NCBI GenBank assembly: GCA_964360965.1
Contig: CAYHYM010000007.1
Span: 1 to 25,022 of the forward strand
DNA length: 25,022 bases
Source: an uncultured Gammaproteobacteria bacterium
GTDB taxonomy: Bacteria; Patescibacteriota; Microgenomatia; Daviesbacterales; UBA10151
Direction: 5' to 3'
The notes beneath the pieces are model-generated. The model was not told the DNA's origin, made no database searches, and saw only the letters and a list, made by a program, of their open reading frames with translations. The position numbers were made by a program, and so were the translations under genes. Positions 3,057 to 21,182 of this stretch are shown here, piece by piece. Positions within the stretch are counted from its first letter, which is position 1, and every line of letters begins with the position of its first letter.

Positions 3057-3659
3057 TTAACGGGAATAATATTCCACAATTAAATGTTCATTAATCGATT
3101 TTTCCATTTCCTCTCTGCTTGGCAATCTTAAAACCTTGCCCAAAGTAGCTTTTCTCTCAAGCCATGGTGGAATACTATCCATCCCTTGTAAACTTTTTTT
3201 TACCTGGGTATTATCCACTAATTTTTGAGAAATTTCAACAACTTGATCAACTTTAACCTTAAATGAAGGAATAGTTGTCTTTTTTCCATCAACAAGAATA
3301 TGACCATGTGACACAAGTTGCCTTGCCCCAGCTCTGCTTGAGGCAAATCCTAATCTATAAACTATATTATCAATCCTGCTCTCTAAAAATTCAAGCAGGA
3401 TTAAACCGCTATTCCCCCTTGATCTGCTTGCTGTCTCAAAATATCTCCTAAATTGTTTCTCTAAAAGACCATACATTCTTTTGGCTTTTTGTTTTTCTCT
3501 AAGCTGAAGTCCATACTCGGAAAATCTTCTTCTTGACCTACCCATATGTTGTCTGGTCGGAACTGCTCCTTTTCGTTCTAGCGCTTTAATATCTTTAGTA
3601 AAAAGGGCCACTCCTTCTCTTCTGGATAATTTTCTTTTAGGGCCCGTGTATCTGGCCAT
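3057..3659 (-). CDS. rpsD: 30S ribosomal protein uS4
   Basis: 200 aa. MARYTGPKRKLSRREG N-terminus plus an S4 RNA-binding domain (RIDNIVYRLGFASSRAGARQLVSHGHILVDG). It has a TAATG one-nt overlap with the rpsK stop. Confidence 0.96.
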   Translation of the reverse strand: MARYTGPKRKLSRREGVALFTKDIKALERKGAVPTRQHMGRSRRRFSEYGLQLREKQKAKRMYGLLEKQFRRYFETASRSRGNSGLILLEFLESRIDNIVYRLGFASSRAGARQLVSHGHILVDGKKTTIPSFKVKVDQVVEISQKLVDNTQVKKSLQGMDSIPPWLERKATLGKVLRLPSREEMEKSINEHLIVEYYSR

Positions 3660-4054
3660 TACACTCTTCTCCTTTTCTTCTGTCTGGGACCATTGTGAGG
3701 CATTGGCGTAACATCGGCAATCATGATGATATTTACTCCAGCGCCTCTTAAAGCTTTAATGGCTCCATCTCTACCAGGGCCGGGACCTTTTATATATACT
3801 TCACAACTTGATAAACCCATACTCTTTGCTTTTTGGGCAATACCATCAACTGCAGTGATGGCAGCATAGGGAGTAGCCTTTCTCGCTCCTTTAAAACCTA
3901 CACCTCCTGCTGACCCCCAAGCAAGCGTATTACCATTTGTATCAGTCAGTGTTACCACAGTATTATTAAAGGTGGCAGTAACATAAACCCTACCATGACT
4001 TATCGGCTGTTTTGTTATAGTTTTTTTTAAAGCTTGCTTTTTTACTTTGGCCAT
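3659..4054 (-). CDS. rpsK: 30S ribosomal protein uS11
   Basis: Start taken at MAKVKKQ (ATG at 4054), one nt after the rpsM stop. GRVYVTATFNNTVVTLTD and KGPGPGRDGAIKAL are uS11 motifs. The longer ORF-track N-extension overlaps rpsM and was rejected. Confidence 0.93.
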   Translation of the reverse strand: MAKVKKQALKKTITKQPISHGRVYVTATFNNTVVTLTDTNGNTLAWGSAGGVGFKGARKATPYAAITAVDGIAQKAKSMGLSSCEVYIKGPGPGRDGAIKALRGAGVNIIMIADVTPMPHNGPRQKKRRRV

Positions 4055-4055
4055 A

Positions 4056-4460
4056 TTATTTTTTATTAGATGTCTGCCCGGTTCTGACTGTTGTTTCTTT
4101 GCGTATAGCTCCCACTGTTTTTCTTTTTCCTCTTCTTGTCCTGGCATTGGACCTAGTCCGCTGCCCTCTCACCGGCAAACCCCTGCGATGCCTTAATCCC
4201 CGATAACTGCCAATTTCCTCCAGCCTTTTAATATTTTGCTCCACCTCTATTTTTAAATCTCCTTCTGTTTTAAATTTATCTACAGCTTTTTGTAATTTAT
4301 TCACTTCTTCTTCTGTTAAATCTTTAACTTTCTTTGTTCCATCAACTCCGGCATCTTTAATAACCAAAAGGTTATTAGACCTGCCTATACCAAAAATATA
4401 GGCTAAGCCAATATCCAATCTTTTATTTTCCGGCAAATCAACTCCTGCAATTCTAGCCAT
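4056..4460 (-). CDS. rpsM: 30S ribosomal protein uS13
   Basis: Start taken at [14 protein letters not shown] (ATG at 4460). [25 protein letters not shown] is typical uS13. The upstream ORF extension runs into rpmJ. Confidence 0.94.
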
Positions 4461-16362: not shown

Positions 16363-17547
16363 TTAGGCAATTATTTTGGTAATAACTCCTGCTCCAACGG
16401 TTTTTCCACCTTCACGGATAGCAAATCTCAAACCCTCTTCCATGGCAACAGGGGTAATCAGTTTTCCGGTAATTTTAACAGTATCACCCGGCATGGCCAT
16501 TTCTACACCTTCCGGCAATTGTACTTCACCAGTCACATCTGTAGTTCGAATATAAAACTGCGGTCTGTAGCCTTTGAAAAATGGTGTGTGCCTTCCGCCT
16601 TCTTCTTTGGATAAAACATAAACCTCTGCTTCAAATTCTGCATGTGGGGTAATTGATCCGGGTTTTGCTAAAACTTGACCTCTTTCCACATCATCTTTTT
16701 CAATTCCACGAAGAAGAACCCCTGCATTATCTCCTGCCTGACCCTCATCCAAAAGTTTATGGAACATCTCAATTCCCGTAACCACACTTTTTTTGGTAGG
16801 CCTTATTCCCACAATCTCCACCTCTTCATTTACTTTAACTTTGCCTCTTTCAATTCTGCCTGTGACCACAGTTCCCCTACCTTTAATGGAGAAAACATCC
16901 TCAACTGCCATCAAAAATGGCTTATCCACATCCCGAACAGGAGTGGGAATCCACTCATCAACTTTGGCCATCAGCTCTTCAATTGATTTGACAGCTTCCG
17001 CATCACCATCCAAAGCTTTCTTGGCTGATCCTCGAATAATTGGGGACTGGGGGTCATATTCATATTTTTTAAGTAAATCCCGAATTTCCTCTTCCACCAA
17101 ATCCAAAAGCTCAGGATCATCCACCATATCTACTTTATTAAGATAAACCACAATAGCAGGAACGCCTACCTGACGAGCCAACAGCAAATGTTCACGAGTC
17201 TGCGGCATTGGGCCGTCTGGCGCGGAAACTACCAAAATTGCCCCATCGGTTTGAGCAGCGCCGGTGATCATATTTTTGATATAATCCGCGTGACCGGGCA
17301 TGTCTATGTGAGCGTAGTGTCTTTTTTCTGTCTCATATTCCTGGTGGGAAATGTTAATGGTGATACCGCGGGCTTTTTCCTCAGGGGCGTTGTCAATCTG
17401 ATCTACAGTACGGACCTCGGCCATGCCTTTCGCAGCTAAAACTTTGGTGATTGCTGCAGTTAAGGTAGTTTTACCATGGTCAACATGACCCATGGTACCG
17501 ATATTGACGTGTGGTTTGCTTCTGTCAAACTTTTTCTGTTCAGCCAT
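16363..17547 (-). CDS. tuf: Elongation factor Tu
   Basis: Start taken at [29 protein letters not shown] (ATG at 17547, with AAAGGAG 2 nt upstream). G1-G4 motifs are present ([20 protein letters not shown]). The 23-codon ORF-track extension lies in a GC-rich hairpin and was rejected. Confidence 0.96.
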
Positions 17548-17560
17548 AACTCCTTTGTCA

Positions 17561-17611
17561 TTCCCGCGAAGGTCATCGACTCCGAGGTCGCTCAGACTCG
17601 AGGAGCGGGAA
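17561..17611 (-). repeat. GC-rich palindromic element in the tuf 5' leader
   Basis: Minus strand reads TTCCCGC-(37 nt: TCCTCGAGTCTGAGCGACCTCGGAGTCGATGACCTTC)-GCGGGAA. The closing stem is 7 bp, and the element is markedly GC-rich against AT-rich surroundings. It ends 4 nt before the tuf SD. Confidence 0.45.
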
Positions 17612-17623
17612 TCCATTTAAAAT

Positions 17624-17640
17624 CCAGCTTACTTAGCTGG
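17624..17640 (-). promoter_or_regulatory. Short hairpin CCAGCT-AAGTA-AGCTGG followed by ATTTT (weak terminator or 5' leader stem)
   Basis: Perfect 6-bp stem with a 5-nt loop. It lies downstream of the candidate tuf promoter and upstream of the GC-rich element. Confidence 0.35.
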
Positions 17641-17650
17641 AACATATGAA

Positions 17651-17679
17651 AATATACAATAATTTCCCTGATAATGCAA
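17651..17679 (-). promoter_or_regulatory. Sigma70-type promoter for tuf-rpsJ
   Basis: Minus strand reads TTGCAT (17679-17674), a 17-nt spacer, then TATATT (17656-17651). It lies about 100 nt upstream of the tuf ATG and 24 nt after the stop of the 42-aa peptide gene. Confidence 0.4.
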
Positions 17680-17703
17680 TAGTTAAATTATAAAATGGAT
17701 CAA

Positions 17704-17832
17704 TTAAGAATTTTTTGAACGTTTACTGGGAGAATCTTTTTTACCAAAAGCAATATAAACCAAAGCAAAGGCTATAATAAGCAGTAGATACATCACACCT
17801 ATATTATTAGTAATTTCTCTAAAATCCATCAT
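17704..17832 (-). CDS. 42-aa single-TM mini protein (P3), paralog of P1
   Basis: Hand translation: MMDFREITNNIGVMYLLLIIAFALVYIAFGKKDSPSKRSKNS. AAGGAG lies 3 nt (first ATG) or 6 nt (second ATG) upstream. There is an ATGA overlap with the stop of the 65-aa ORF. 17 of 28 residues are identical to P1 across the TM segment. It is below the ORF-track cut-off. Confidence 0.6.
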   Translation of the reverse strand: MMDFREITNNIGVMYLLLIIAFALVYIAFGKKDSPSKRSKNS

Positions 17833-18026
17833 TTTCTCCTTGATTTTTCCCTCAAATACTTTGCTGCAAACAAAGCTAGTATACCATTTAGAATCTTAAA
17901 TAACAATAAAAAGATGTCCTCCTGACTCCGAAGAGAATAGAACTGAGTCTCAACAAGTGCAGCTATAAACCAAGCTGCGCCGAAGTTGACCAGAAATTCA
18001 GATATAATTTCATACCAAATTCGCAT
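17829..18026 (-). CDS. 65-aa two-TM mini membrane protein with a basic C-terminus
   Basis: MRIWYEIISEFLVNFGAAWFIAALVETQFYSLRSQEDIFLLLFKILNGILALFAAKYLREKSRRK has two hydrophobic helices and ends KSRRK. Its ATG shares one nt with the P1 stop (TAATG). The N-terminal half weakly resembles P1/P3, with E-I, V, I, L-V and F at matching positions. Confidence 0.55.
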   Translation of the reverse strand: MRIWYEIISEFLVNFGAAWFIAALVETQFYSLRSQEDIFLLLFKILNGILALFAAKYLREKSRRK

Positions 18027-18136
18027 TAGGAACGATTTTTAAAGAAAATTATATATACTAGAGGAAAAATTATTAAAACTATTAGATATTCAACAGCGAT
18101 GGCATTAGTAATCTCAGTAAAACTTCTTCCATTCAT
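18026..18136 (-). CDS. 36-aa single-TM mini protein (P1), paralog of P3
   Basis: Hand translation: MNGRSFTEITNAIAVEYLIVLIIFPLVYIIFFKNRS. No SD is visible; a TATACT box ends 6 nt upstream of the ATG, so a leaderless start is possible. DNA-level similarity to P3 is also visible (GARATTACTAAT ... TATCTA ... GTNTATAT). Confidence 0.5.
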   Translation of the reverse strand: MNGRSFTEITNAIAVEYLIVLIIFPLVYIIFFKNRS

Positions 18137-18163
18137 AAGGGTAGTATATCAGATGACAAAATG

Positions 18164-18183
18164 TTCTCGACCGAGAATATAAT
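18164..18183 (+). promoter_or_regulatory. Palindrome TTCTCG-AC-CGAGAA abutting a TATAAT box (candidate operator and -10 for ORF180)
   Basis: 6+6 perfect inverted repeat at 18164-18177 (8 of 10 matches per arm when extended to 18161-18180). TATAAT follows at 18178-18183, and ATGACA lies at 18153-18158 with a 19-nt spacer. It sits in the 111-nt divergent region between P1 and ORF180. Confidence 0.35.
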
Positions 18184-18247
18184 GAATACTGCACCCTAAA
18201 AGCTATGATAGGTGGAAAGCTAAACTAGGTTGTGGTATACATAAACC

Positions 18248-18790
18248 ATGGATTCAGAAGAAACAACTAGTCCAGAACTAGAAACAATGCGTGCTCAAGT
18301 ATGGCAGGAAGTTGAAGACAACTGGCAAAAAGAAGTTAAAAGAAATCCAAAATTAGCAGCAGATGATCCAAAAGTTGTTTATGAAGGAATAGACGAAGCA
18401 GAGATTAATCCAGAATTAAGAGCTAATTATGAGGCTGGGTTTAAGGCTAGAAAAATTGCTAATTTCCTTTATAATTTTCGATCAGATATGCCTAGTAAGT
18501 ATAATCATTTTGTAGAAGTTCTAGGACCAGACTATGTCTACACTGATACTCATACTTCTTATTCTTCTCTTCAATATGGAAAAACAATTGAGCAATATTA
18601 TGGTGAAATTGCAGAGGCTATGAAACAAGCTGGAATCTCTGTAGAAGATTGGCAAAGAATTGAAGAAGAAAGGGATAAAAAAACCTACGGTTTGACTGAA
18701 CTTAAATTTCAAGAAACCTTATTAGATATTTATACTAGACTTAGGCTGATAAATCCTAATGCCCCTAAATTTGATCAGGAACCCATCTAA
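18248..18790 (+). CDS. Acidic 180-aa hypothetical protein (ORF180); no family recognised
   Basis: ORF-track protein MDSEETTSPELETMRAQVWQEVEDNWQKEV.... The plus strand here is purine-rich, matching the coding-strand bias of the other genes in the window. No SD is visible, and no TM segment or motif is recognised. The last 69 nt overlap the 3' end of ORF115 on the other strand. Confidence 0.55.
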   Translation: MDSEETTSPELETMRAQVWQEVEDNWQKEVKRNPKLAADDPKVVYEGIDEAEINPELRANYEAGFKARKIANFLYNFRSDMPSKYNHFVEVLGPDYVYTDTHTSYSSLQYGKTIEQYYGEIAEAMKQAGISVEDWQRIEEERDKKTYGLTELKFQETLLDIYTRLRLINPNAPKFDQEPI

Positions 18791-19069
18791 CTTTACTACT
18801 AGCACCTGCCCCCAATACCAATCACTTAATTCCATTCCATGTCTAAGATTAGTCATGGCTTTATGGATACAGTGGTCATCTCCATAGAAGGTAAACACGA
18901 CAAATCTATTTGGATCTACAATCCTTACGCATCTCCCTTTGATTTCTCCTGTTTCGAGTTTCACCCTTGAGAGCTCAACATGAGCACCAAGTTCAAGAGG
19001 ACTCTTATCCTTATGGCCAATTTCTAAAGGACCAACTTTCCATCTTGGTTCTAATTCATAGAAACCCAT
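18722..19069 (-). CDS. 115-aa hypothetical protein (ORF115), start-stop coupled to fusA
   Basis: Start taken at ATG 19069 (MGFYELEPRWKVGPLEIGHKDK...), one nt after the fusA TAA (TAAcATG). The ORF-track start at 19111 lies inside fusA. The plus strand is pyrimidine-rich, consistent with minus-strand coding. No family is recognised. Confidence 0.55.
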   Translation of the reverse strand: MGFYELEPRWKVGPLEIGHKDKSPLELGAHVELSRVKLETGEIKGRCVRIVDPNRFVVFTFYGDDHCIHKAMTNLRHGMELSDWYWGQVLVVKLDGFLIKFRGIRIYQPKSSINI

Positions 19070-19070
19070 G

Positions 19071-21182
19071 TTAGTGTTCCACTCTTCCTGTAAATCCTGA
19101 GGATTCAACAATTTTGGCAGTTATATTTTGGGGTACAGGTTCATAGTGATCTGCTTCCATGTAGTAAGAAGCTCGTCCTTGTGACATACTGCGCAAAGTG
19201 GTGGCATATCCATGCATCTCTGCCAGAGGTACCAGGGAATTAATAATAGTATAATTTCCTCTTTTTTCCGTTCCCAGGATTTGAGCCCGTTTTTTTGATA
19301 AATCACCAATAATATCTCCCATAAACTCATCAGGCGTTGTCACCTCCACCTTCATAATAGGCTCAAGTAAAATCAATCCTGCTCTTTTGGCCGCATCGGA
19401 AAGGCCCAATGATCCGGCAATTTTAAAGGCAATCTCAGATGAGTCAACCTCATGATAAGAACCATCATAAACAGTCACTTGAATATCAGTCAAAGGATAT
19501 CCTGCCAAAATACCCGTATCTTCTTTCTCAATCACTCCTTTCTCAATAGCCGGAATATACTCTCTTGGTATTGCTCCTCCCACCACTTCTGAGACAAACT
19601 CACGACCCTGACCCCTTGGCAATGACTCTATCTTGATCAAACAATGCCCATATTGCCCTCTGCCCCCAGTTTGCCTAATATATTTTCCTTCACCTTGAGC
19701 ATTTACGGTAATTGTTTCTTTATAGGCAACTTGCGGCTGTCCAACATTGGCCTCAACCTTAAATTCCCTTTTCATCCTCTCCACTAAAAGCTCCAGCTGG
19801 AACTCCCCCATGCCGGCAATAATAGTCTGTCCTGTTTCAGGATCGGATTTTACTCTAAAAGTAGGGTCTTCCTCAGCCAGTCTTCCCAGAGCATAACCCA
19901 ACCTCTCCTGATCGCTTTTGGTTTTTGGCTCAATAGCCAAAGATATGACCGGATCCGGAAATAAGATAGATTCCAAAATAATTGGATAGCTTTCATCACA
20001 TAATGTATTCCCGGTGATGGTGTCTTTGAGCCCCACAGCTGCCACAATTTCACCTGAGAAGGCTTCATCTATTTCTTCCCTGTCATTGGCATACATCAGT
20101 AAGATTCTACCCACTCTTTCTTTGATCTGTTTTGAGCAGTTATAAACATAAGATCCGCTCTTTAGGGTTCCCGAATAAACCCTGATATAGGTCAGTTTCC
20201 CCACATGTGGATCAACCTGGATTTTAAAAACCAGGGCAGAAAGAGGGGCTTGAGGGTCTGCTTTTCTTTGCTCTGACTCTTGCGTTTGCGGATTTTGGCC
20301 GGAGACTTCTGCAATATCTTGGGGAGAAGGCAAAAAATCTACCACAGCATCCAACACTTTCTGAACTCCCTTATTTCGCAAAGATGATCCTGAGAGAACC
20401 GGCACAATTTTACTTTCAATTACAGCCTTTCTTAAAACTCTTTTTAACTCATCTACAGCAATCTCCTGTACCGCCAAATATTTTTCCATCAGTACATCAT
20501 CGCATCCAGCAATTTCCTCTACCAGTTTTTCCCTAGCTTCTTTTACTTCCCGGGCCATATCAGAGGGAATCTCAACCTCACTAAATTCTGCACCGGTGGA
20601 ATCACTTTCCCAAATAAAAGCTTTTTGGGTCAGTAAATCAACAACTCCCTTGAATTCATTTTCCCGTCCTATGGGAATATTATATGCAACTGCATTTGCG
20701 CCCAACTTTTCCCTAGCAGATTTTATTGTTCCCATAAAATCTGCTCCCACCACATCCATTTTATTGGCAAAGGCAATCAGGGGAACCCTGTATTTATTGG
20801 CCTGCCTCCAGACAGTTTCAGTCTGGGATTGCACTCCTGAGGCTGCATCCAAAACTATCACTGCCCCATCCAAAACTCTCAGAGACCGCTCCACCTCTGC
20901 TGTAAAATCAACATGGCCGGGAGTATCAATTAAATTAATCCTGACATCTTTCCAAAAAGTGGTGATGGCAGCAGACATAATAGTCACACCATGCTCTTTT
21001 TCCAGCTCCATCCAGTCAGTCACAGTGGTTCCCTCATCAATATTGCCGATTTTATAAGTTCTGCCTGTGTAAAAAAGGATTCGCTCAGTGGTGGTAGTTT
21101 TACCGGCATCAATATGGGCAATAATGCCAATATTTCTAATTTTATCAAGAGGAAAATCCCTTTTGGTTTTTTGAACAGCCAT
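19071..21182 (-). CDS. fusA: Elongation factor G
   Basis: 703 aa. [47 protein letters not shown] and NKMD match EF-G, and all five EF-G domains are recognisable by length and motifs. Confidence 0.97.

What the first reader, a model, noticed from the sequence alone, without database searches (positions are those of the whole stretch)
17704..18136. Three start-stop-coupled mini membrane proteins, two of them clear paralogs
Hand translation of the minus strand gives P1 (36 aa), a 65-aa two-TM protein and P3 (42 aa) in tandem. P1 and the 65-aa ORF are joined by TAATG, and the 65-aa ORF and P3 by ATGA. P1 FTEITNAIAVEYLIVLIIFPLVYIIFFK and P3 FREITNNIGVMYLLLIIAFALVYIAFGK share 17 of 28 residues, and the similarity is also visible at DNA level. 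The first helix of the 65-aa protein (WYEIISEFLVNFGAAWFIAALVETQF) keeps the same E-I...V...I..L-V...F register. This suggests a family of duplicated or fused TM modules. Two of the three genes are too short for the ORF track and would be missed by routine annotation. Tandem small hydrophobic peptides with basic tails recall type I toxins, holin/antiholin pairs or small regulators of membrane complexes.
Basis: seen in the sequence. Interest (0 to 1): 0.7.

Follow-up and report, generated by a model that had tools for sequence, protein, structure and literature searches.

The report
Conserved tiny membrane-protein pair plus extra copy
The three mini-genes are real, but the core is an unannotated, widely conserved pair of tiny membrane proteins (65 aa with two helices, about 41 aa with one helix) found in groundwater 'Microgenomates' bacteria, and this strain has added a diverged extra copy of the short one; what the pair does is still unknown.

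Summary
Observation confirmed. On the minus strand lie P1 (18026-18136, 36 aa), P2 (17829-18026, 65 aa) and P3 (17704-17832, 42 aa; more likely 41 aa from the ATG at 17829). They are joined by TAATG and ATGA/TGATG. P1 and P3 are paralogs (18/32 identical, E 2e-10).

The real unit is P2+P3. In all 24 distinct related loci a P2-like hairpin gene (about 61-84 aa) is followed by an overlapping P3-like gene of 35-43 aa. The P2 family has 464 clusters at 50% identity and matches no Pfam, NCBIfam, PHROGs, PADLOC or PDB entry. The two named members are Candidatus Roizmanbacteria and Gottesmanbacteria. dN/dS against the closest relative is 0.10 (P2) and 0.13 (P3).

Of 17 stand-alone modules, 16 carry a -10 box 6-8 nt before the start codon and no Shine-Dalgarno sequence, so the mRNA is probably leaderless.

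P1 occurs only in this strain. It is a diverged P3 duplicate placed between the promoter and P2.

P2 helix 1 is not related to P1/P3 (hhalign probability 1%). Nothing supports the toxin, holin or phage readings.

Most likely P2 and P3 form a small heteromeric inner-membrane complex that acts as an accessory subunit. That function is inferred. Interest is moderate.

The parts
18143..18170 (-). Promoter of the module. It has a weak -35-like TCGAGA (18170-18165), TG (18151-18150) and a -10 TATACT (18148-18143). Only 6 nt separate the -10 from the P1 ATG and there is no Shine-Dalgarno sequence, so a leaderless mRNA is predicted.
   Evidence: Promoter scan and sequence. The same block, tcgagaa..tgtcatcTGaTATACT, lies directly before P2 in L004. 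In 16 of 17 stand-alone modules a TANNNT hexamer lies 6-8 nt before the start codon, binomial P 2e-14. No transcription start data exist, so this is an inference.
18026..18136 (-). P1, 36 aa, one transmembrane helix. It is a diverged, strain-specific paralog of P3. It has lost the family-invariant A21, A28, G30 and K32, has gained Glu and Pro in the helix, and its tail is cut to NRS.
   Evidence: It is absent from 23 other loci. dN/dS against P3 is 0.32. The chance of the ORF staying open is about 5%, and the Fisher test of synonymous against nonsynonymous changes gives P 0.024. It was not called by the public gene callers.
17829..18026 (-). P2, 65 aa, a two-helix membrane hairpin. It carries the family signature S9-x4-N14-x4-W19 in helix 1 and L41, G48, L52, A55 in helix 2. 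The loop is acidic and the C-tail is basic (KYLREKSRRK). Its start overlaps the P1 stop (TAATG).
   Evidence: Family of 37 and 464 clusters. Conservation table. AlphaFold2 hairpin, pLDDT 92.5. dN/dS 0.096 against L004. Charge distribution.
17836..17841 (-). Shine-Dalgarno sequence AAGGAG for P3. It lies inside the end of P2, 6 nt before the second ATG (17829).
   Evidence: Sequence. It is conserved in L004, L011 and L013.
17704..17832 (-). P3, 42 aa (probably 41 aa from the ATG at 17829). It is a single-pass membrane peptide with an acidic N-terminus, the near-invariant motif IAFALVYIAFGKK, and a Ser/Lys/Arg-rich tail.
   Evidence: dN/dS 0.127 against L004. A P3-like gene overlaps the end of a P2-like gene in all 24 distinct loci.
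17878..17906 (-). Possible internal promoter inside P2 (TTGTTA-17-TGgTATACT). It could give a transcript carrying P3 alone. This is a consensus match only.
   Evidence: It repeats the -10 block of the main promoter (D2). It lies in highly conserved coding sequence, so its conservation says nothing about promoter function.
17623..17676 (-). Downstream boundary. This is the tuf promoter (TTGCAT-17-TATATT) plus the hairpin CCAGCT-loop-AGCTGG and a U-run. It belongs to tuf, not to the module, but it may also terminate the P1-P2-P3 transcript.
   Evidence: Terminator scan and fold. The same block lies upstream of tuf in L017, L019 and L023, whatever gene precedes it. Homology with L004 ends at the P3 stop codon.

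Best explanation
Core unit. The locus is a self-contained small operon. Its conserved core is a two-gene module, P2 plus P3, specific so far to Microgenomates-type CPR bacteria.

P2 is a 65-aa two-helix hairpin. Its N- and C-termini face the cytoplasm, its acidic loop faces outward and its C-tail is basic. P3 is a roughly 41-aa single-pass peptide with an acidic N-terminus outside and a basic Ser/Lys tail inside.

Expression. Both are made from one transcript, probably leaderless. The P3 start overlaps the P2 stop, so the two are co-produced.

Proposed function. They most likely assemble into one three-helix heteromeric unit in the cytoplasmic membrane. The unit would be held together by the invariant polar and small residues: S9, N14 and W19 of P2, and Y26, A21, A28 and G30 of P3. 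The most likely role is a non-toxic accessory or stabilising subunit of a larger membrane machine, or a membrane-homeostasis factor.

P1. In this strain a duplicate of P3 was inserted between the promoter and P2. It now takes the leaderless start, and P2 translation is coupled to it through TAATG. P1 has lost several family-invariant residues and most of the tail. It is therefore either an alternative or competing partner for P2, or a slowly decaying copy.

Shown: coding status, paralogy, family size, obligate P2-P3 adjacency and overlap, promoter geometry, purifying selection.

Inferred: physical complex, topology, leaderless translation, accessory-subunit role.
For: Adjacency:
- All 24 distinct loci carry a P2-like gene followed by an overlapping P3-like gene, in different neighbourhoods. 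These include after leuS, after recX, near rpsO, dnaA|P2-P3-rpmH-rnpA-yidC, and between fusA and tuf in five genomes.

Selection:
- Window against L004: P2 dN/dS 0.096 (Fisher P 1.6e-10) and P3 dN/dS 0.127 (P 1.8e-4).
- Other locus pairs give dN/dS of 0.12-0.57.

Family:
- 464 clusters at E<=1e-3. Almost all of the 150 listed are 54-104 aa.
- S9, W19 and L41 are each conserved in 96% of members and N14 in 91%.
- P3 has the invariant motif Y-I-A-F-(G)-K-K.
- The AlphaFold2 model of P2 is a hairpin with pLDDT 92.5.

Topology: the charge distribution fits a positive-inside arrangement for both proteins.

Promoter: in 16 of 17 stand-alone modules a -10 box lies 6-8 nt before the start codon and no Shine-Dalgarno sequence is present.

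Other hints:
- A read-through fusion of P2 and P3 exists as P0177.
- P3 was duplicated independently in L024, giving P2-P3-P3'.
- No phage or plasmid association was found.
Against: - No partner machine has been identified, and no neighbouring gene is conserved across loci.
- P2 is disrupted in 3 of 24 loci, always in or near the loop. L025 has an in-frame TGA, L026 a frameshift, and L011 a deletion plus frameshift. The pair is therefore dispensable in some lineages, or those assemblies contain errors.
- Many loci sit in variable gene pockets next to toxin-antitoxin or nuclease genes: PemK, HicAB, PIN, Phd, GIY-YIG and NYN. That would also fit a selfish or immunity module.
- The P0177 fusion may be an assembly artefact. 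Its single-sequence model is only pLDDT 72.
- No transcription, translation or interaction data exist.
- P1 is known from one population only, with no variation between samples, and it is under relaxed constraint.
Confidence: 0.55

Rival explanations
1. P2 and P3 assemble into an autonomous small pore or ion channel (viroporin-, pinholin- or holin-like, or a cation leak channel). The conserved Ser, Asn and Glu/Gln of P2 helix 1 would line the pore.
For: Helix 1 of P2 is only moderately hydrophobic and carries conserved S9, E/D10, N14 and E26/Q28. The architecture of two helices plus a charged C-tail resembles class II holins (own knowledge). The module is self-contained with no conserved neighbour.
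Against: There is no lysis cassette, endolysin or phage context, and no hit in PHROGs, IMG/VR or INPHARED. The basic C-tail of P2 is absent in the short-loop subfamily. A consensus constitutive promoter on a leaderless mRNA is an odd choice for a lethal pore. Conserved Asn and Ser in helices are explained equally well by helix-helix packing.
Confidence: 0.15
2. The module is a membrane toxin plus its protector, either type I-like, a toxin with an immunity protein, or a leaderless bacteriocin with an immunity protein. P3 (and P1) would be the hydrophobic cationic toxin and P2 the co-translated immunity protein. On this reading the module is selfish and mobile.
For: P3 and P1 resemble type I toxins or leaderless bacteriocins in size, hydrophobic core and basic tail. 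The module occurs in many unrelated contexts and often beside toxin-antitoxin genes in variable pockets. The peptide gene has been duplicated twice independently. P2 is broken in L011 while P3 is intact.
Against: P3 is very strongly conserved, with IAFALVYIAFGKK retained across loci whose P2 proteins are only about 20% identical. Purifying selection acts on both genes. No antisense promoter is linked to the module. The conserved block after P3 is the tuf promoter and is absent in L004. None of the 24 loci has an ABC exporter or peptidase. PADLOC gives no hit and there are no plasmid or phage copies. The position between fusA and tuf is syntenic in five genomes whose P2 proteins are about 50% identical, which argues for vertical inheritance.
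Confidence: 0.12
3. P1 is not a functional gene. It would be a decaying duplicate of P3 whose frame happens to stay open, and only P2-P3 would be expressed, for example from the internal TTAATA-17-TATAAT site at 18076-18048.
For: P1 is found in one population only. It has lost the invariant A21, A28, G30 and K32 and the tail. Its HMM score is 29 bits against 88 for P3. The chance of the ORF staying open is about 5%, which is not negligible. A promoter-like site lies inside P1.
Against: P1 sits exactly at the conserved leaderless start position behind the conserved promoter. Its stop overlaps the P2 start (TAATG) and P2 has no Shine-Dalgarno sequence of its own. Synonymous changes exceed nonsynonymous ones (dN/dS 0.32, P 0.024). 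The hydrophobic helix and the F-x-E-I-T-N and L-V-Y-I motifs are retained.
Confidence: 0.3

Closest known systems
Small accessory membrane subunits encoded with, or translationally coupled to, a partner gene (for example SecG/SecE/YajC of the Sec translocon, AcrZ, KdpF, CydX). This comparison rests on my own knowledge.
   Same: Size (30-70 aa), one or two helices, positive-inside tails, strong sequence conservation and co-translation with a partner gene.
   Different: No sequence relation to any of them. The P2 and P3 profiles found nothing in PDB at E<=10 apart from spurious hits, and Pfam and NCBIfam gave nothing. The pair is not encoded beside a large membrane-machine gene.
TatA/TatE (Pfam PF02416)
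   Same: P3 has an N-out single helix followed by F-G-K-K, like the L-F-G-T-K-K hinge of TatA. NCBIfam gives a weak TatA hit (E 0.14).
   Different: There is no amphipathic helix after the hinge, since the tail is only about 5-13 residues. There is no Pfam match. No tatC gene is seen in any locus.
Type I toxins (Hok, Fst/Ldr, TxpA, BsrG classes)
   Same: Peptides of 35-45 aa with one hydrophobic helix and a charged tail, easily missed in annotation.
   Different: An obligate protein partner gene is present, the family is broad and under purifying selection, the promoter looks constitutive, and no antisense RNA element is conserved with the module.
Class II holins and pinholins (for example S21)
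   Same: P2 is about 65 aa with two helices and, in the window subfamily, a basic C-terminus.
   Different: There is no phage or lysis context, no PHROGs hit and no viral contigs. The C-terminus is acidic or neutral in the short-loop subfamily.
Asterix (PAT complex, PF03669) and PsbN (PF02468)
   Same: A few P2 members score up to 21.5 bits on ASTER, against a cut-off of 22.7. Ten of 13 P3 members hit PsbN weakly, with a best E of 0.0026.
   Different: All scores are below the curated cut-offs. The phyletic distributions do not overlap. These are best read as chance resemblance between membrane helices.

Membership tests
P2-P3 small membrane module (the uncharacterised family defined here) | A P2-type hairpin of roughly 54-90 aa with S-x4-N-x4-W in helix 1 and L..G I..L..A in helix 2 | tested here: met
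   Window P2 scores 95 bits on the family HMM. S9, N14, W19, L41, G48, L52 and A55 are all present.
P2-P3 small membrane module (the uncharacterised family defined here) | A P3-type peptide of 35-43 aa with ..IAxxLxYIAFGKK and a basic tail, whose start overlaps or abuts the P2 stop | tested here: met
   Window P3 scores 88 bits. The junction is ATGA/TGATG. The same arrangement is seen in 24 of 24 loci.
P2-P3 small membrane module (the uncharacterised family defined here) | A -10 hexamer 6-8 nt before the first start codon and no Shine-Dalgarno sequence (leaderless design) | tested here: met
   TGaTATACT ends 6 nt before the P1 ATG. The pattern holds in 16 of 17 modules. The transcription start itself has not been measured.
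Type I toxin-antitoxin | A small hydrophobic toxin peptide of 60 aa or less | tested here: met
   P1 is 36 aa and P3 is 41-42 aa, each with one hydrophobic helix.
Type I toxin-antitoxin | An antisense or divergent small-RNA antitoxin with its own promoter, conserved together with the toxin | tested here: not met
   The opposite-strand promoter-like sites at 17646-17696 lie in a block that is the conserved tuf promoter and hairpin. Homology with L004 stops at the P3 stop codon. Rfam gives nothing.
Type I toxin-antitoxin | Toxicity on overexpression | not testable with these tools
   This needs inducible expression in a surrogate host.
Holin/antiholin | Encoded in a phage or prophage lysis cassette next to an endolysin | tested here: not met
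   The neighbours are fusA, tuf and unknown ORFs. PHROGs gives no hit. IMG/VR and INPHARED give no relatives.
TatA/E (PF02416) | Match to the family model, and an amphipathic helix after the F-G hinge | tested here: not met
   There is no Pfam hit. hhalign probability is 8.8%. The tail after GKK is about 5-13 residues.
Asterix/PAT complex (PF03669) | Score above the Pfam gathering threshold, supported at family level | tested here: not met
   The best member scores 21.5 bits against a cut-off of 22.7, and the window protein has no hit. hhalign probability is 3.4%. The PDB profile search gives no hit.
Class II or leaderless bacteriocin plus immunity protein | A dedicated exporter or processing genes adjacent, and strain-variable peptide sequence | tested here: not met
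   None of the 24 loci has an ABC transporter or peptidase neighbour. The P3 motif is near-invariant.

The most novel reading that the evidence does not exclude
P2-P3 is a lineage-wide, previously unrecognised core membrane complex of Microgenomates. It would be a minimal three-helix heteromer expressed from a leaderless mRNA that substitutes for, or modulates, a missing small subunit of an essential membrane machine. Candidates are protein translocation or insertion, or ion homeostasis in these reduced cells. P1-type duplicates would act as exchangeable subunits that tune it.
Probability: 0.3. Interest if true: 0.7.

Novelty: new variant of a known kind. Interest (0 to 1): 0.5.

Why it matters
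CPR/Patescibacteria genomes are small, and a large share of their lineage-enriched protein families are membrane-located hypothetical proteins. PMC6744442 reports 35 families enriched in Microgenomates, of which 14 are predicted to be membrane proteins.

This work defines one such family pair precisely. It gives a signature (S-x4-N-x4-W in P2 and YIAFGKK in P3), an obligate gene order with overlapping stop and start codons, a size of at least 464 clusters at 50% identity, and a consistent promoter geometry that points to a leaderless mRNA. These features give annotators a usable model for two genes that are unnamed or, like P1, missed altogether.

The work also provides one of the clearer sequence-based indications that leaderless expression is used in this group. 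It supplies a small, tractable target of three helices and 106 residues for multimer modelling and heterologous expression. If the partner machine can be found, the pair could reveal how these reduced cells organise their membrane.

Tried and rejected
- Pfam, NCBIfam, PHROGs and PADLOC scans of P1, P2, P3 and their neighbours gave nothing above the cut-offs.
- PDB sequence-profile searches with both families gave only spurious hits.
- A Foldseek search of the P2 hairpin model against PDB gave no match at E<=0.001. This was expected for a two-helix hairpin.
- hhalign against TatA and Asterix rejected both.
- An Rfam scan of 17300-19300 gave nothing real.
- The genome-contig scan with the full alignment failed because no conserved stretch was long enough. 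A narrower alignment gave one Gottesmanbacteria locus.
- Viral contigs, INPHARED phages and PLSDB plasmids held no relatives.
- P0003, the NCBI copy of P3, could not be located as a contig.
- Cluster look-ups gave no organism names.
- Literature searches for leaderless mRNAs in CPR and for small membrane proteins in Microgenomates found nothing specific.
- The single-sequence AlphaFold model of the natural P2-P3 fusion P0177 shows three helices, but pLDDT is only 72 and pTM 0.43, too weak to support packing claims.
- The visual resemblance of ORF129 to small ORFs after fusA in L017 and L021 did not pass BLASTP at 1e-3.
Full report
**1. Setting**

The window is the ribosomal-protein superoperon on the minus strand. 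It runs from the end of rpoC through rpsL, rpsG, fusA (19071-21182), tuf (the ORF is 16363-17616, but the real ATG is at 17547) and rpsJ into the S10, spc and alpha operons. Identical DNA occurs on contigs from Hainich groundwater 0.1-µm filtrates (99.6-100% identity). GC content is about 39%.

The finding lies in the 1.5-kb interval between fusA and tuf. This interval also holds two unknown ORFs: ORF129 (18722-19111, minus strand) and ORF180 (18248-18790, plus strand).

**2.

| ORF | Coordinates | Length |
|---|---|---|
| P1 | 18026-18136 | 36 aa |
| P2 | 17829-18026 | 65 aa |
| P3 | 17704-17832 | 42 aa |

- The junctions are TAATG (P1/P2) and ATGA (P2/P3).
- P3 more likely starts at its second ATG (17829, giving a TGATG junction). 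That start matches the one used by homologs and lies 6 nt after the AAGGAG at 17841-17836.
- P1 and P3 share 18/32 residues (BLASTP E 2e-10). The other two frames of the same DNA give 8/31 and 11/31 matches with several stops. The repeat is therefore a coding duplication, not a DNA repeat.
- Hydropathy and charge profiles show two hydrophobic segments in P2 and one each in P1 and P3.

**3. The frames are conserved elsewhere and are under purifying selection**

The closest relative is a 1.2-kb JGI contig (L004). It carries P2 at 75% and P3 at about 90% identity.
- dN/dS there is 0.096 for P2 and 0.127 for P3. Fisher tests of synonymous against nonsynonymous changes give P 1.6e-10 and 1.8e-4.
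- More distant locus pairs give dN/dS of 0.12-0.57, with synonymous sites saturated.

**4. The conserved unit is the P2-P3 pair, not the trio**

- A search with a P1/P3 profile found 12 peptides of 36-42 aa. They share the motif ...IAFALVYIAFGKK followed by a Ser/Lys/Arg-rich tail.
- In every locus retrieved, such a gene is preceded by a two-helix gene of 61-84 aa whose stop overlaps or abuts its start.
- A search with a P2 profile found 37 proteins.
- An exhaustive HMMER scan of 1.84 billion representative proteins found 464 clusters at E<=1e-3. Almost all of the 150 best are 54-104 aa.
- HMMs of both families, run over all ORFs of every fetched locus, show P2 followed by P3 in all 24 distinct loci.
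- The only named members are from Candidatus Roizmanbacteria (P0033) and Candidatus Gottesmanbacteria (L014). Both belong to Microgenomates.
- Neither family matches Pfam, NCBIfam, PHROGs, PADLOC or any PDB sequence.

**5. Anatomy of the two proteins**

*P2*
- AlphaFold2 predicts a helical hairpin (helices 2-29 and 35-64, pLDDT 92.5).
- Across 171 representatives, S9, W19 and L41 are each conserved at 96% and N14 at 91%. L52 is at 84%, A55 at 79%, I49 at 76% and A17 at 74%.
- On average the loop is acidic (net -1.3) and the C-tail basic (net +3).

*P3*
- The N-terminus is acidic (net -1.1) and the tail strongly basic (net +4.4).

By the positive-inside rule, both tails face the cytoplasm while the P2 loop and the P3 N-terminus face outward. 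This topology is an inference.

*Is P2 helix 1 related to P1/P3?* No. hhalign of the two family profiles gives probability 1%.

**6. Expression signals**

- In the window, a TG-extended -10 box (TGaTATACT, 18151-18143) ends 6 nt before the P1 ATG. No Shine-Dalgarno sequence is present.
- The same promoter block lies directly before the GTG start of P2 in L004.
- Across 17 stand-alone modules, 16 have a TANNNT hexamer 6-8 nt before the start codon. About 2 would be expected by chance (binomial P 2e-14). None has a Shine-Dalgarno motif within 20 nt.
- This geometry is the hallmark of leaderless mRNAs (established knowledge). No transcription start data exist.
- Where the module follows another gene (leuS in L005, recX in L012), the P2 start overlaps that gene's stop instead.
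- P3 has its own AAGGAG. In the window, P2 has no Shine-Dalgarno sequence, so it must depend on termination-reinitiation after P1 (inference).

**7. P1 is a strain-specific extra copy of P3**

- P1 is absent from the other 23 loci. In L004 the promoter abuts P2 directly.
- P1 retains the motifs F-x-E-I-T-N and L-V-Y-I. It has replaced the family-invariant A21, A28, G30 and K32, has acquired Glu and Pro in the helix, and has lost most of the tail.
- Its HMM score is 29 bits, against 88 for P3.
- dN/dS against P3 is 0.32 (Fisher P 0.024). The chance of the frame staying open is about 5%.
- An independent duplication exists in L024, arranged as P2-P3-P3'.

P1 is therefore either a variant partner for P2 or a slowly decaying copy. 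I put the second possibility at about 0.3.

**8. Boundaries and neighbourhood**

- Homology with L004 ends at the P3 stop codon.
- The sequence between P3 and tuf (17676-17623) is a conserved tuf promoter (TTGCAT-17-TATATT) followed by a hairpin and a U-run. It lies upstream of tuf in L017, L019 and L023, whatever gene precedes it. The terminator-like hairpin therefore belongs to tuf.
- This also disposes of the opposite-strand promoter-like hits at 17646-17696 as a possible antisense-RNA promoter tied to P3.
- The module lies between fusA and tuf in five genomes whose P2 proteins are only about 50% identical: the window, L017, L019, L021/L023 and L030. This position is old within that subfamily.
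- The interval itself is a variable pocket. It also accumulates GIY-YIG, NYN, DUF5674, HTH/PIN and unknown ORFs.

**9. What it probably does**

The following features all point to a stoichiometric heteromeric complex of three membrane helices, made constitutively:
- obligate adjacency with overlapping stop and start codons;
- strong conservation of polar (Ser, Asn, Tyr, Trp) and small (Ala, Gly) residues within the helices;
- matched topology of the two proteins;
- a read-through fusion (P0177);
- the leaderless consensus promoter.

The function of that complex cannot be read from the gene context. I favour an accessory or stabilising subunit of a larger membrane machine, or a membrane-homeostasis factor.

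Rivals:
- *An autonomous pore.* The polar face of helix 1 fits this. There is no lysis or phage context.
- *A toxin/immunity pair.* Peptide shape, mobility and toxin-antitoxin-rich neighbourhoods fit this. Against it stand the near-invariant P3, vertical synteny, the absence of an exporter or antisense RNA, and the absence of plasmid or phage copies.

One caution applies to any claim of essentiality. P2 is interrupted in the loop region in 3 of 24 loci.

**10. Comparison with known families**

- The TatA-like hinge of P3 (F-G-K-K) and the weak PsbN hits of the P3 family, like the weak Asterix hits of some P2 members, all fall below the curated thresholds. They also fail profile-profile tests.
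- The defining context features of type I toxins and holins were tested and not met.
- The module is best described as a new, unannotated small-membrane-protein family pair of Microgenomates. It would be a new variant of the familiar class of tiny co-translated membrane subunits.

**11. Verdict**

- Novelty lies in defining the family and its leaderless, overlapping two-gene design, not in a new principle.
- Interest is 0.5.

Noticed in passing
window 17623-17676 (minus); L017 3329-3420; L019 about 1400-1523; L023 about 3960-4065: A conserved tuf promoter (TTGCAT-N17-TATATT) is followed by the hairpin CCAGCT-loop-AGCTGG and a U-run. It lies directly upstream of tuf in four different genomes, whatever gene precedes it. 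The hairpin may both terminate upstream transcripts and cap the tuf mRNA.
   Followed up: partly
window 17568-17612 (minus): A GC-rich imperfect palindrome of about 45 nt (tcccgctcctcgagtctgagcgacctcggagtcgatgaccttcgcggga) lies between the tuf leader hairpin and the tuf Shine-Dalgarno sequence. It is absent from the same position in L017, L019 and L023. It creates a spurious 23-aa N-terminal extension of the tuf ORF. It may be a small mobile or REP-like insertion.
   Followed up: partly
window 17617-19070; L017, L019, L021/L023, L030: The fusA-tuf interval of this clade is a variable gene pocket. The window has ORF129 and ORF180, both of unknown family. L017 has GIY-YIG plus three unknown ORFs. 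L021/L023 has NYN, DUF5674, a 93-aa ORF, P2-P3, then 94-aa and 97-aa ORFs. L030 has a 162-aa ORF, P2-P3, a 120-aa ORF and an HTH/PIN pair.
   Followed up: partly
window 18722-19111 (minus) and 18248-18790 (plus): ORF129 probably starts at its internal Met-15 (about 19069), one base after the fusA stop codon. It overlaps the 3' end of the convergent ORF180 by 69 nt. Neither ORF matches any Pfam, NCBIfam, PHROGs or PADLOC family.
   Followed up: partly
L019 688-1424; L021/L023 2333-2940; L025 3489-4114: A DUF5674 protein (109-133 aa) with an overlapping partner of about 93-112 aa recurs right next to the P2-P3 module in three genomes, sometimes upstream and sometimes downstream.
   Followed up: partly
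L029 2989-4882 (AMFJ01007061.1): In a distant member, P2-P3 sits at the replication-origin gene cluster. dnaN and dnaA lie on the opposite strand upstream, followed on the same strand as the module by P2-P3, rpmH, rnpA, yidC and jag. In this subtype P3 carries its basic cluster at the N-terminus (MKKKTKK) and has no C-tail, and the P2 loop is basic. This suggests that both proteins may be inverted in the membrane together.
   Followed up: partly
L025 3091-3093; L026 about 3100-3120; L011 1919-2139: P2 is interrupted in or near the inter-helix loop in three loci: an in-frame TGA, a 1-nt frameshift, and a deletion plus frameshift. P3 stays intact in all three. The cause could be a tolerated split into two single-helix peptides, pseudogenisation or assembly error.
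   Followed up: partly
window 17878-17906 (minus): A promoter-like site (TTGTTA-17-TGgTATACT) lies inside the P2 coding sequence. Its -10 block repeats that of the main promoter (direct repeat D2). It could yield a transcript carrying P3 alone.
   Followed up: no
L004 773-1111 (minus): The closest relative of the module is followed within the 1.2-kb contig not by tuf but by an unknown 112-aa ORF on the opposite strand. The contig is too short to show whether tuf lies further on.
   Followed up: no
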